Source: Chrysomallon squamiferum (taxonomy: Eukaryota > Animalia > Mollusca). From it: a stretch of 64,000 nt of DNA. Within the stretch, counting starts at the first letter, position 1. Each line of letters opens with the position of its first letter. The stretch spans positions 11,036,001 through 11,100,000 of the forward strand of contig CM022678.1 of assembly GCA_012295275.1 (NCBI GenBank). The letters are read 5' to 3'. A program made the position numbers and the translations under genes. The notes beneath the pieces are model-generated. The model had not been told where the DNA came from and ran no database searches. It saw nothing but the letters and a program-made list of their open reading frames with translations. This document shows, one piece after another, positions 34,371-63,980 of this stretch.

Positions 34371-34664
34371 TCAAGGACAGTCTCTCTCGTCACTTCCATT
34401 GGGGCAGTCAGAGATCGTGTCACAGAAGAGACTTTCAGAAATACACACCCCACTGTCGCAGGCTCTCATTCCCTCCCCACAACCTGTAATCACACATTAA
34501 TTAACAATCACAAGTGAAAAAAAAAAACTGTTACTTTTCACTTTAAAATAAATGTCAATTTCTGGGACATTGGCTGTGACATCAGTAATTTAAAAACACA
34601 ATTTACTTTAATTTAATTACTTCAAACACTATAAAAGTTTTCAAATATTTATTTATTTATTTAT

Positions 34665-34697
<33 letters not shown>

Positions 34698-37600
34698 AAC
34701 AGACAGACAGAGAGATAGATAGATACACAGATAGATAAATAGATAGATAGATAGATAGACAGACTGATAGATTGAAACCTAGACAGACTGACAGATAGAC
34801 ACATTGATGCACAGACCAATAGACAGACAGACAGACAGATATGCAGACAAACAGACAGATATTTAGATATATTTGTATACTGACAGAAAAACCAAAAACC
34901 AAAAATAAAAAATGTAGCGGACTTGTTTAACATGTCGTGGAGAATCAAATTAAAATGTTCTCTGGTTTAAAATATGCAAATACTAAAATTAAGAGTTTTG
35001 GGGTTAAGACTAAATGTATTTAATTTATAAAACACAGAAACACACTGACCTGATGAAGTTGTAGTTGTTGTAGGTACATTTATATCTACAGGAGCCACAG
35101 TAGTAGCTGCTGATGTAGCTTCAACTACAAAAAAATATATATTATATATTTCACTGTTTTTATTTATACATGAAACTATATGTTACTACAACTACTGTCA
35201 CAATAACAAAAGTTACTCTGTCTCTATAACTAAAGTTACTACTGTTACTACAAATTACAACTGTTACAGATACTACTTTGCTATAACTAAAGTTACTACT
35301 GTAACTACGACTATAGATCTACCATTACTTTCACCACTGTCGGTACTGCTACAACTACTTCACAAAAACAACCACAACAATTTCCACTCTTACCAGGACA
35401 CCTCGTCTTCAGCAGTTTGACATCGTCAATGGCAACGTCGGCCTGGTTCTCGTTTCCTCTCTGAGCGACAAACACCAGTGACAAGTTGGCAGATGACGGC
35501 AGATCGAGGCACTTTGTCTTCCAGTTCATGTCACCATCAGCTTTGTCTCTGAACAGCTCTGTGACGGTGTTGTCAGCGTTGTCGTTCACGTAGACGGTGA
35601 GGATGCCCAGCGTTTTGAAAAACTGGTAGAACGCACTGAAGATGCTGTAGGAAAACTGCACCGATCCACCCACAGACGAGAACGTTGGTGTTGTTAGTGA
35701 CGATGCTTCACTGAATTTCCCATATGTGCCATCAGCGTAGATGTAGTGACCTGGATGTAGAGAAGAATAATGTGTACACTTCAGTTATTACAGTGACTGC
35801 TTATACTGTTTACAGATCAAATCTTGTTTGTATTAATACAATATTAGTATTAGCCAGTGAACCATCCTGAACTTTTAAACAGCACAGCATAAAATTATTT
35901 AATAATAATGAGAAGAAGAAATAGAAAAACACAAAATTAAAAACAATAAATGTAAAATACTTTGTATTAAATATGGCTTTGTACCTCTGGAAGTTAAAAT
36001 ATGGCATATAATTTAAAAATACTGGAACATGAAGCAAAATACTGATTAACATGATGAATTTGTTCATCAAAAACTGAGTGCTGAGCACAGTAAAATATAA
36101 CAAATAAAATAACTGCTTTGAGAAAATTTCAACTGGGGTTGAAATTATATATGCAGCTTTAAATTAAAACCCATGCTTAGACAAAATAATCCTTCAATGA
36201 ATGACTAGTGCTTTTGTTTCCACATGAAATTGTCAAGATATTTAATTTTCGTCTTATTTCCTATTTATTTAATTTTCTTTTTCACCTGCTTTTAGGGCTG
36301 AAAAGAATGATGACTGTCGTTGTTAGTTTCACTTACCTGAAGAATTGGCGAAGGTGTTGTCTGTCTTTGGGCCGGTGTTGGGTGTGTCGGTGGGGCCTGA
36401 GTGCTGCTGCCACTTGTACTCGGTGGAGTTGACAATGTAGCCGCAGAGAAAACGGTCTTCAAAGTCACATGACACACTGCGTCGTGAATCTGTCACAATC
36501 CACAAAATGTTTATTTTTTATTTGCAAAATTTAATATAAAATACTGCAACAATTTAGGTTTAAGTAATCACTTTTTGTGTTTTTATTACATTATTATTAT
36601 TATTGTATATAATATAATTATTAATTATTATTATTATTATTACTGTTGTTATTATTTTATTTAATATTATTATCAATTATTATTATTATTATTATTATTA
36701 TTTTATTATTATTGCTACAACAATATCACTTTTTTCTTTTATGATTTCTTTTTTATTTCTTCATTTCTTTTCTTTTTTTCTCTTTTCTTTTAATTAATTA
36801 ATTTATTATTATTATTTATTATTATTTATTATTATTATTATTTTATTATTTTTAATAAAAAGAAATGAATAAGAAATGAAGACAGTGAAGACAGCACATA
36901 CCACAGAGTTTGCCTTCGTCACTTCCGTCTTTACAGTCGACATTCCTGTCACACGTTTTTGACTTTGGAATACACGGACCATCAGGACACTTGAACTCAG
37001 TTTGTGTACACGCTGTAAAATAAACAAACACATAAATACATACATAAATAAAATTTAATATAAAAATAAAAAAATAAATAAATAAATAAAAAAGAAGAAA
37101 ATAAATAAAAAAGAAGAAAATAAATAATTAAGTAAATAAATAAATAAATAAATAAATAACAAGAAAATAACTAAATAAATTTAAAAAAAACACCTAAATA
37201 AATAAAATTTAAACATTCAATACACAATGAGAAAAGAAAGAAAAATTGTTAATAAAATGATAATTAAATAAATTCCGGCATTCTTTCCATGAGAAAACAT
37301 GAATTAAAATTTTTAAAAATCATTTCTTTATAAACAATAAATAATTATTAATAACATATAGTATTAAAACACTGTCAAAAATTCAAACACAAAAAAAAAA
37401 TCATTAAAACTGTAGAGCTTTTAGAACTAAATTTATTTTTCTCTTTAAATTATTTTTTCTGTTTAAAACGTAACATTAGTCAGATTTAAATAATAATGAA
37501 ACAATGAAGACATCGTACTAAATAAATATTTAATTTGTTAAATTTGTATTTTTAAAGCACATACCACAGCCAGCTTCGTCACTGGCGTCACTGCAGTCTA

Positions 37601-62918: not shown

Positions 62919-62974
<56 letters not shown>

Positions 62975-63980
62975 CTGTACAGGTGTAAGATAACAAGTGG
63001 TATTCTACGAGTGACGTCATCGCACGTGCGTGTAGTTAACGGTAACGCTGGAAAAATGAGAAACGTTTTCTCGATGATTAATCATTTGTTTTGTTTAGAC
63101 ACGTACATCAACAACAATTTACTTTTCTTCTTTCTTATCAGTTCTCTCTAGAGAATCCAACAAAGGGAAACCATCAAGCTCCCGTAGTTATTTATATATT
63201 TATATATATATATATATATATAATACGTTATATATTTTACTGTTCACTAACATTTGACGTCATAAAGGTTCGTTCTGTTAAAAAGTTTGTTTGTTGTTGT
63301 TGTATTAATACCTATAGTGACTGTAATTTTTTCCTGTCGGTTAAATATGACACAACTATCGCTACTCCCTTGTATCTAAATCATGGACTGGATCCTGCAT
63401 TCCACCCGTGTACAAATATAGCTACTGAAGTTAAGTGTTAAGCCTAATATTCCTGATGATGAAATCTAAAGACTAAGATCGTAGGATAGGCAACCCCAGG
63501 TATGTTAATTATTCGATTAGTGTGTAATATTATTTTTTATCAGCATTTTTTATCTCATTCGGGTACAATCGGTTTGTTTCGTCTGTTTGTACGAAGTAAA
63601 CCGAAAATTCGTTCGGATAGTTTTTCGATTATGTTTAATAAATGTAATTGTATTGGTTAAAAAGTTTTACCTCCTTGAGTGAAAATGATAGCACAGGCTA
63701 CCCCGACGGCTAAAGCAATAACAAAAACACAACCAAGAACTATTAGTATTGCGTCTCTAGTCCTTAATTTCCGCCAACAACAGGTCGGCTCCGCCACAAT
63801 CGGTTCGGCATTTCCCGGCGCCTTGGCGGGAGGGAACTCCGGTTCGCTTTTGACTGTCCCATTGCTTTTCTCGTACGTGAAACTGGTGCTGTCGAGCACT
63901 GCAGACGATCGTATGTTGTCGTCGAAGAAGCCGACGTTGACGCTGGACGGAGAGAGATCATCACTGGTAGATCTGAATTT
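34371..63980 (-). CDS. corin-like type II transmembrane mosaic serine protease: TM-SEA-5xFz-4xLDLa-SRCR-protease-LDLa-MAM-LDLa-MAM-2xLDLa-MAM-LDLa; 5' end beyond the window
   Basis: 40 phase-compatible exons totalling 6276 nt: 63980-63671, 62236-62159, 61084-60999, 60399-60332, 58890-58703 (weak donor), 58057-57977, 57407-57168, 56543-56376, 55497-55261, 54766-54599, 53853-53608, 53114-52980, 52605-52366, 51862-51719, 51016-50777, 50133-50035, 49437-49327, 48700-48593, 47981-47874, 47511-47401, 47136-47010, 46539-46438, 46206-46157, 45986-45821, 44503-44229, 43703-43561, 43120-42964, 42643-42539, 42010-41882, 41511-41194, 40853-40734, 39744-39598, 39073-38940, 38256-38040, 37675-37565, 37012-36902, 36489-36337, 35750-35394, 35124-35050, 34483-34371 (TGA). 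Confidence 0.85.
39740..40410. repeat. AT-rich degenerate tandem repeat array (ttagatactgttaaaatat core)
   Basis: Recurring units of about 40 bp with larger duplicated blocks. Confidence 0.75.
42964..45986 (-). CDS. S1-family (trypsin-fold) serine protease domain (4 exons)
   Basis: [26 protein letters not shown] (His57), NDIAL (Asp102), PICLP, TGWG, GDSGGPL (Ser195). Confidence 0.95.
44548..45720. repeat. 42-43-bp minisatellite (about 21 copies) grading into ~62-bp units, in a protease-domain intron
   Basis: Unit ttttaaaattaatcagtgttctagtgatgtcatcaaacaaatg; aatcagt recurs at 45121 and 45164. Confidence 0.92.
46157..47136 (-). CDS. SRCR-like domain (3 exons)
   Basis: [20 protein letters not shown]...[12 protein letters not shown], in the pre-protease position typical of corin and TMPRSS proteins. 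Confidence 0.75.
47401..49437 (-). CDS. four LDL-receptor class A repeats (one exon each)
   Basis: 6-Cys repeats ending [33 protein letters not shown] and [11 protein letters not shown]. Confidence 0.9.
50035..57407 (-). CDS. five Frizzled-type cysteine-rich domains with Thr/Pro linkers (10 exons)
   Basis: Each has the 10-Cys pattern with C..GYN.T..PN, C..(L/F)C...FP.C and PC...C, split over a 237-246-nt exon and a second exon. Confidence 0.9.
51036..51372. repeat. ~15-17-bp tandem repeat (aaacataaacttttaa)
   Basis: Direct reading. Confidence 0.85.
55105..55173 (-). mobile_element. degenerate fragment of the same dispersed repeat
   Basis: The reverse complement aaatgtttgacaaacaataagtgatgacagagaattaattaatgtgttttagtgatgtcgttaaat aligns by eye to the ~62-bp unit at 45555-45625. 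Confidence 0.45.
56220..56377. repeat. ~75-bp tandem duplication containing a splice donor
   Basis: aaacacttacatg occurs three times (about 56220, 56294 and 56367). Confidence 0.85.
57977..62236 (-). CDS. Ser/Thr stalk exons flanking a SEA-like domain (5 exons)
   Basis: [15 protein letters not shown]...[40 protein letters not shown]...[10 protein letters not shown]. The size, residue pattern and juxtamembrane position fit SEA (inference). Confidence 0.55.
61670..62065. repeat. (CATA/CA)n compound microsatellite
   Basis: Direct reading. Confidence 0.9.
63671..63980 (-). CDS. exon encoding the cytoplasmic tail and type II transmembrane anchor
   Basis: Basic residues (RKLRTR) precede the hydrophobic [24 protein letters not shown]. 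Acceptor ttctcag|, donor G|GTAAAA. Confidence 0.85.

What the first reader, a model, noticed from the sequence alone, without database searches (positions are those of the whole stretch)
34371..63980. Giant corin-like membrane protease with an apparently novel architecture
Seen: 40 exons splice in frame with no stop into at least 2091 aa, ordered TM, SEA-like, 5 Frizzled CRDs, 4 LDLa, SRCR, serine protease, then LDLa-MAM-LDLa-MAM-LDLa-LDLa-MAM-LDLa. Known: vertebrate corin has 2 Fz, 8 LDLa, SRCR and a terminal protease. Enteropeptidase has SEA and a single MAM, both N-terminal to the protease. Inference: this is a lineage-specific mosaic that combines a multivalent CRD array, a protease and a MALRD1-like MAM/LDLa array in one cell-surface protein. 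I do not know a described protein with this domain order.
Basis: partly seen in the sequence, partly recalled or inferred. Interest (0 to 1): 0.85.

Follow-up and report, generated by a model that had tools for sequence, protein, structure and literature searches.

The report
Mollusc-wide mosaic cell-surface protease
A real 40-exon gene, likely from a snail, encodes a giant membrane protease whose domain plan also appears in database records of many snails, clams and octopuses; it is predicted to cut like elastase rather than like corin and likely works on mucus-covered cell surfaces.

Summary
Forty GT-AG exons give 2091 stop-free residues in the stated order. RNA contigs splice the protease to the LDLa/MAM tail. 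A Gigantopelta aegis RefSeq model has the same order at 68% identity end to end. It is not a one-lineage mosaic: 35 of 376 fetched proteins, from 29 named gastropod, bivalve and octopus species plus 2 unnamed records, share the CRD...protease-LDLa-MAM plan with 1-8 CRDs. They are auto-named corin, acrosin or uncharacterized. It fails the corin tests: Asp189 in 0 of 34 protease domains, Val216 in 34 of 34, Arg at the activation site in 0 of 34. Its proteases group with annelid, nemertean and brachiopod proteins, not directly with corin; deeper kinship stays open. The CRDs have a shortened loop where Frizzled-8 lines its Wnt-lipid groove, and were amplified separately in several lineages. Nine literature searches found no description of the family. 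Verdict: an apparently undescribed mollusc subfamily of type II membrane proteases, predicted elastase-like; substrate and tissue untested.

The parts
63671..63980 (-). Exon 1: cytoplasmic tail and single transmembrane helix preceded by basic residues (type II orientation inferred); start codon lies outside the window
62159..62236 (-). Exon 2: Ser/Thr/Pro-rich stalk
   Evidence: 81% S/T/P
58703..61084 (-). Exons 3-5 (61084-60999, 60399-60332, 58890-58703): SEA-like domain lacking the Gly-Ser self-cleavage motif
   Evidence: no direct Pfam hit; orthologous region is Pfam SEA in Solemya; motif survey
57977..58057 (-). Exon 6: Ser/Thr/Pro-rich stalk
56376..57407 (-). Exons 7-8: Frizzled-type CRD1 (10 Cys) and mucin-like linker
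54599..55497 (-). Exons 9-10: CRD2 and linker
52980..53853 (-). Exons 11-12: CRD3 and linker
51719..52605 (-). Exons 13-14: CRD4 and linker
50035..51016 (-). Exons 15-16: CRD5
47401..49437 (-). Exons 17-20: four LDLa modules, one per exon
46157..47136 (-). Exons 21-23: SRCR domain
   Evidence: weak; Gigantopelta SRCR_2 E 6.5e-6
42964..45986 (-). Exons 24-27: chymotrypsin-fold protease, His/Asp/Ser intact, Asn189, Val216, Ala226, activation bond after Phe
   Evidence: RNA joint out of exon 27
42539..42643 (-). Exon 28: LDLa5
41194..42010 (-). Exons 29-30: MAM1
40734..40853 (-). Exon 31: LDLa6
38040..39744 (-). Exons 32-34: MAM2
36902..37675 (-). Exons 35-36: LDLa7 and LDLa8
35394..36489 (-). 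Exons 37-38: MAM3
35050..35124 (-). Exon 39: Thr-rich linker
34371..34483 (-). Exon 40: terminal LDLa9 and stop codon; no second membrane anchor

Best explanation
This is one gene for a mollusc-wide membrane serine protease, predicted to sit N-terminus-in on the cell surface, to cut after small aliphatic residues like elastase, and likely to process proteins of the mucus or surface coat of epithelia. Shown: gene structure, domain order, intact catalytic triad, S1 residues, family spread. Inferred steps: (1) the helix anchors the chain with everything behind it outside the cell; (2) mucin-like linkers hold SEA and five CRDs as a long spaced stalk; (3) a non-trypsin protease cuts the zymogen after Phe, probably in trans since Val216 should exclude Phe from its own pocket; (4) the catalytic chain stays tied to the stalk by the conserved propeptide disulfide and carries the LDLa/MAM array as its most distal part; (5) CRDs, LDLa and SRCR dock substrate or activator, and the MAM/LDLa tail binds matrix or dimerises. 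In bivalves the SEA motif would allow self-cleavage; in gastropods, this one included, it is lost. Odds: identity as one gene of this family about 0.93; the mucosal-surface role about 0.45.
For: Single gene. Contig lengths fit the model: X3 would start 112 nt before exon 1 and end in exon 30; X1 would run from exon 16 to exon 38 (from lengths only). Family. Pocket: Val216 in 34 of 34, Asp189 in 0 of 34; His57 and Asp102 in 34 of 34, Ser195 in 33 of 34. The last protease exon's best solved matches are proproteinase E chains, with the same residues around 214-217. Activation P1 is Phe/Tyr in 21 of 34 and Arg in 0 of 34. SEA motif in 14 of 14 bivalve and 0 of 9 gastropod regions. Linkers 73-83% S/T/P. 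Mucosal setting rests on analogy (enteropeptidase is intestinal, PMC7834812 passages; MALRD1 and apical endosomal glycoprotein recalled) and on one unlinked lead: a protein named ANP-converting enzyme is 1.21% of the shipworm crystalline style proteome (PMC8561940 passage).
Against: No substrate, tissue or activity data for any member. The shipworm protein could not be tied to this family, and oysters hold a separate, shorter protein with the same name. Pocket residues predict specificity imperfectly, and position 226 varies (Ala, Val, Ser, Asn, Met, Gly). Some members have Thr, Ser or Val at the activation P1, which would allow self-activation. The second protease domain of the Batillaria model (Ile216, Arg activation) was left out of the 34. 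A 160-nt contig at depth 4.7 lies in intron 27 in one run; read-through would stop after 55 codons, so a minor tail-less form is possible.
Confidence: 0.5

Rival explanations
1. The same protease works in matrix building or reproduction (shell organic matrix, egg coat, fertilisation), as nudel or ovochymase do, rather than on mucosal surfaces.
For: A brachiopod shell proteome lists two consecutively numbered contigs, one MAM plus S1 peptidase and one LDLa-SRCR-S1 (PMC4453069 passage), which resembles the Fz-less relatives. A protease followed by LDLa repeats is also the nudel layout.
Against: The brachiopod sequences could not be read. Grouping the mollusc proteases with nudel is rejected (p 0.0001; wider clade p 0.064). 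Nudel keeps Asp189 and Arg activation.
Confidence: 0.25
2. The CRD array captures Wnt ligands and the protease cleaves or sequesters them, making it a membrane-bound Wnt modulator.
For: Five CRDs with all 10 Cys, significant to Frizzled CRDs. A modelling paper predicts Wnt binding for corin CRDs (PMC6747125 passages). Separate amplification in scallop, mussel, oyster, Solemya and octopus suggests that valency matters.
Against: The loop between Cys8 and Cys9 is 5-12 residues in 125 of 125 scored family CRDs (2 of 127 unscored) against 15-16 in 5 of 5 vertebrate corin CRDs. Alignments to Frizzled-8 stop at Cys8 and Frizzled-4 is 7 residues longer over the matched span. Four of eight residues listed for the Frizzled-8 lipid channel (Met122, Tyr125, Phe127, Pro130; PMC6873803 passage) fall in that loop (numbering offset recalled).
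Confidence: 0.12
3. It is the mollusc corin ortholog, a prohormone convertase that cuts after Arg, with an added MAM tail.
For: CRD-LDLa-SRCR-protease is colinear with platypus corin (31% over 625 aa). Several records are named CORIN. A clade of the wider lophotrochozoan group plus chordate corin is not rejected (p 0.41).
Against: No Asp189, Gly216 or Arg activation in 34 family domains, while corin has all three. Mollusc proteases plus corin as one clade is rejected (p 0.026). Oysters have a separate SEA-Fz-Fz-LDLa2-SRCR-protease protein with Asp189 and Arg activation.
Confidence: 0.08
4. Two or more neighbouring genes were stitched together by the reader.
For: Only 4 of 39 junctions are seen directly in RNA, from one study, as assembled contigs. 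Many ortholog models are automatic predictions. A Patella isoform model starts at the last CRD with its own hydrophobic leader, so shorter forms may exist.
Against: The protease-LDLa-MAM joints are spliced in 3 of 3 RNA runs laid. 35 other records fuse the same parts, among them a 1565-aa protein on a 5079-nt Logan contig and a 1807-aa protein on a 5838-nt one, lengths that leave almost no room for introns.
Confidence: 0.03

Closest known systems
Unnamed mollusc orthologs (Gigantopelta aegis LOC121376891; Solemya velum ScPMuIL_009165; Patella vulgata LOC126821774; Haliotis, Aplysia, Mytilus, Octopus records)
   Same: Same plan; identical order in Gigantopelta (68% over 2111 columns) and Solemya (33%); same S1 residues.
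   Different: CRD number 1-8, LDLa before SRCR 2-4 in models that hold an SRCR, SEA motif kept only in bivalves; all are database models with automatic names.
Corin (TMPRSS10, chordates)
   Same: Type II anchor; Fz CRD, LDLa, SRCR and protease in series.
   Different: Corin has two long-loop CRDs interleaved with LDLa, a terminal protease, Asp189/Gly216/Gly226 and Arg activation, and no MAM.
Enteropeptidase (TMPRSS15)
   Same: SEA, LDLa, MAM, SRCR and protease in a type II chain; best solved match to the LDLa-SRCR-protease stretch of the ortholog, E 1e-59.
   Different: One MAM before the protease, CUB domains, no CRD, trypsin-type pocket.
Two-protease lophotrochozoan mosaics (Owenia P0167, Tubulanus P0165, Lingula P0275)
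   Same: First protease groups with the mollusc clade (97/91); non-Asp189 pocket and hydrophobic activation P1 in Owenia and Tubulanus; protease followed by LDLa/MAM in those two.
   Different: No CRDs found; a long LDLa run and a second SRCR-protease at the C-terminus; Lingula record has no MAM.
Oyster corin-like protein (P0333, P0336)
   Same: SEA, CRDs, LDLa, SRCR, protease; its first CRD has the same short 8-residue loop.
   Different: About 935 aa, no MAM tail, Asp189, Arg activation; groups with arthropod nudel (99/93).
MALRD1-type MAM/LDLa array proteins
   Same: Alternating MAM and LDLa modules (23-25% identity).
   Different: The fetched records carry no protease or CRD; type I anchoring is recalled, not tested.

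Membership tests
Type II transmembrane serine proteases | Single N-terminal membrane anchor, no signal peptide | tested here: met
   One hydrophobic helix near residue 76 behind basic residues; same in Gigantopelta. Topology is inferred from sequence.
Type II transmembrane serine proteases | Modular stem of SEA, LDLa, SRCR, Fz or MAM | tested here: met
Type II transmembrane serine proteases | Chymotrypsin-fold domain with His/Asp/Ser triad | tested here: met
Type II transmembrane serine proteases | Protease at the C-terminus (recalled as the rule in vertebrate members) | tested here: not met
   About 700 residues of LDLa/MAM follow, spliced on in RNA
Type II transmembrane serine proteases | Asp189, cleavage after Arg/Lys (PMC7834812 passage) | tested here: not met
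   Asn189 here; Asp189 in 0 of 34 family domains
Corin | Two CRDs interleaved with LDLa blocks, SRCR, terminal protease | tested here: not met
   Five tandem CRDs, then 4 LDLa; tail after the protease
Corin | Arg activation site and trypsin-type pocket | tested here: not met
Corin | Protease domain in one clade with chordate corin | tested here: inconclusive
   Direct grouping rejected, p 0.026; with the wider lophotrochozoan clade not rejected, p 0.41; only 4 chordate rows
Corin | Converts a natriuretic propeptide | not testable with these tools
   needs an assay
Enteropeptidase | SEA-LDLa-CUB-MAM-CUB-LDLa-SRCR-protease order | tested here: not met
   No CUB hit in window exons or the ortholog; MAMs follow the protease
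Nudel | Central active protease with Asp189, a second degenerate protease, shared clade | tested here: not met
   One protease, no Asp189; grouping rejected p 0.0001
Wnt-binding Frizzled CRD | Ten conserved cysteines | tested here: met
   10 Cys in 5 of 5
Wnt-binding Frizzled CRD | Full Cys8-Cys9 segment lining the lipid channel | tested here: not met
   8-9 residues in the five CRDs here against about 16; no usable 3D model
Self-cleaving SEA domain | Gly-Ser-(Val/Ile) motif (MUC1 motif recalled) | tested here: not met
   Absent at that place in 9 of 9 gastropod regions, present in 14 of 14 bivalve regions

The most novel reading that the evidence does not exclude
An unrecognised subfamily, as old as the split of gastropods, bivalves and cephalopods, in which short-loop Frizzled CRDs were grafted from a corin-like gene onto a lophotrochozoan elastase-type protease with a MAM/LDLa tail. 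The CRDs would be a Wnt-independent multivalent sensor, amplified separately in each lineage under pressure from a changing ligand such as microbes or food proteins, and coupled to surface proteolysis.
Probability: 0.25. Interest if true: 0.65.

Novelty: new variant of a known kind. Interest (0 to 1): 0.4.

Why it matters
Mollusc omics papers cite genes named 'corin' or 'ANP-converting enzyme' and read them through vertebrate heart biology (PMC10329180 passage). At least two different mollusc proteins carry that name, and this one is predicted not to cut after Arg. The family gives a membrane protease with an elastase-type pocket, which the human members do not have by the review read, a natural series of 1-8 CRDs, and a short-loop CRD suited to asking what Frizzled-type domains do without the Wnt lipid channel. 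It is not a new kind of system: all parts are standard and the gene is already in public annotations.

Tried and rejected
No genome is held for the window, so copy number and the start exon were not checked. A homolog search with one protease exon among longer proteins found 0 of 80 candidates. A metagenome scan gave 2 distant loci at 31-40% identity, not used. The ESM Atlas gave no usable hit for the third SEA exon. A single-sequence fold of one ortholog CRD had mean pLDDT 46 and was discarded; no fold search was run on it. The first protease tree (78 rows) finished only as a quick tree; the 41-row tree used LG+G4 without the mixture model and left out most near-duplicate orthologs, TMPRSS9 copies and the degenerate chiton and tardigrade domains. 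The wider group was named after the tree was seen. The CRD tree has 110 columns for 66 rows and did not place the oyster short CRD, so the graft idea is untested. Short loops are not unique to the family: a starfish protein has 12 and 6. No CRD-bearing form was seen outside gastropods, bivalves and octopods (the one chiton record has none), but both searches list only the best 120 and are limited by length, so absence is weak. Octopus mucus 'MAM and LDL-receptor' proteins (PMC11431876 passages) could not be tied to the family. Supplements: 12 of 14 files of PMC8561940 held no match; PMC10329180 gave one row without sequence; PMC4453069 files were unreadable. Unseen supplements may hold expression data for these genes. 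Earlier findings of the scan: none in 3 look-ups.
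Full report
Observation. I rebuilt the gene from splice signals on the minus strand. Forty exons between 63980 and 34371 give 2091 codons without a stop, then TGA; the other two frames hold 95 and 140 stops; all 39 introns (170-1441 nt) are GT-AG. Each CRD is a two-exon phase-1 cassette with 10 cysteines, and four of the five end in a Ser/Thr/Pro linker. The SEA-like call is indirect: no Pfam hit in the window's exons, but a profile seeded on the region hits the place where Pfam finds SEA in Solemya and other bivalve orthologs.

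One transcript. Five runs hold part of the region; I laid 3 of the 4 RNA runs and the fifth run on 41880-43125. All three RNA runs (one study) skip introns 27 and 28 exactly and their loose ends match exons 26 and 30; the fifth run covers the introns unspliced. So protease, LDLa5 and MAM1 are in one spliced RNA. By length alone, the X3 contig would begin 112 nt before exon 1, and X1 would span exon 16 to exon 38. Thirty-five junctions were not seen directly. One 160-nt contig in intron 27 leaves room for pre-mRNA or a minor tail-less form.

Family. A search with the MAM3 exon returned 150 proteins; one, from Patella vulgata, had the CRD-to-MAM3 order. Two searches with Patella proteins (best 120 listed each) brought the total to 376 proteins. 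Of these, 35 have CRDs followed by protease-LDLa-MAM: 33 named records from 29 gastropod, bivalve and octopus species, and 2 unnamed. Gigantopelta aegis LOC121376891 is 68% identical end to end, every exon aligns, and only about 5 N-terminal residues are missing from the window. The window therefore likely comes from a related gastropod. Gigantopelta and Solemya have exactly the same order; others vary in CRD number from 1 to 8. Names given are uncharacterized, CORIN, acrosin or enteropeptidase.

Protease. Across 34 family domains His57 and Asp102 are in all, Ser195 in 33 (one model has a gap), Val216 in all, Asp189 in none, and the activation P1 is Phe/Tyr in 21 and Arg in none; platypus corin, fish enteropeptidase and nudel have Asp189, Gly216, Gly226 and Arg (chymotrypsin numbering and its meaning are established knowledge). 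The second protease of the Batillaria model was left out. The last protease exon matches proproteinase E best among solved structures. In a 41-row tree the 14 mollusc domains form a clade (96/87) inside a group with Owenia, Tubulanus and Lingula domains (97/91). Joining the molluscs directly to chordate corin, enteropeptidase or nudel is rejected (p 0.026, 0.007, 0.0001). Joining the wider group to them is not (p 0.41, 0.35, 0.064), so deep ancestry is open. Oysters carry a separate corin-like protein with a trypsin-type pocket.

CRDs and SEA. The Cys8-Cys9 loop is 5-12 residues in 125 of 125 scored family CRDs (2 unscored) and 15-16 in 5 of 5 vertebrate corin CRDs; the oyster corin-like CRD1 and a starfish protein also have short loops. 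Alignments to Frizzled-8 end at Cys8, and half of the residues listed for its lipid channel lie in that loop (PMC6873803 passage; numbering offset recalled). This argues against ordinary Wnt binding but does not exclude it; the one fold attempt was unusable. CRDs cluster by species in Ylistrum, Mytilus, Saccostrea, Solemya and Octopus, and mostly by position in gastropods (few columns), which points to repeated separate amplification. The SEA self-cleavage motif is in 14 of 14 bivalve and 0 of 9 gastropod regions.

Mechanism. The anatomy gives a surface-anchored zymogen on a long glycosylated stalk, activated by a non-trypsin cut, with an elastase-type pocket and a distal LDLa/MAM array; all of this is inferred from sequence. 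I favour processing of mucus or surface-coat proteins on epithelia (about 0.45), by analogy with enteropeptidase and MAM/LDLa proteins and from one unlinked shipworm lead. Matrix or reproductive roles (0.25), Wnt modulation (0.12), a corin-type convertase (0.08) and a stitched model (0.03) are the rivals.

Literature. Nine searches of the open full-text library found no paper describing this architecture or six of its locus ids; subscription journals are mostly missing. I saw search listings for all, passages of PMC6747125, PMC8561940, PMC10329180, PMC11431876, PMC4453069, PMC6873803 and PMC7834812, and supplement searches as listed under Tried and rejected; no paper was read whole.

Verdict. 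Real gene, correct domain order, present across molluscs in public annotations, apparently not described as a family, and mis-named as corin. New variant of a known kind; interest 0.4.

Noticed in passing
window 4325-4855 (+): Exon of a bHLH transcription factor (Pfam HLH E 7e-20); looks like the Ptf1/Fer group (recalled, not tested).
   Followed up: partly
window about 14799-28258 (+): A BMP5/6/7-class gene (propeptide exons near 14799-15200, 24303-24491, 25233-25427, 26100-26290; mature domain 27995-28258; best solved match BMP6, E 2e-49), tail to tail with the protease gene. Conserved linkage not tested.
   Followed up: partly
window 42804-42963: A 160-nt contig at depth 4.7 in run X2 lies in intron 27 next to the protease's last donor; read-through would stop after 55 codons. 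Pre-mRNA, DNA, a repeat copy or a tail-less isoform.
   Followed up: partly
window 44549-45457: A 43-bp minisatellite of about 21 copies at 91% match in a protease intron; many other mini- and microsatellites fill the introns.
   Followed up: no
P0333, P0336 (oyster proteins): Oyster 'ANP-converting enzyme-like' proteins have a corin-like layout but their protease groups with arthropod nudel (99/93), not chordate corin.
   Followed up: partly
P0064 (Patella vulgata isoform X2): A shorter model begins with its own hydrophobic leader just before the last CRD, hinting at an alternative secreted or short-anchored form.
   Followed up: no
P0157 (Batillaria model): The protease-LDLa/MAM unit occurs twice in tandem; the second protease has an Arg activation site and Ile216. 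May be two fused gene models.
   Followed up: no
P0195 (Liolophura, chiton): A related protein with two protease-LDLa-MAM units, no CRD found, and a first protease lacking the triad.
   Followed up: no
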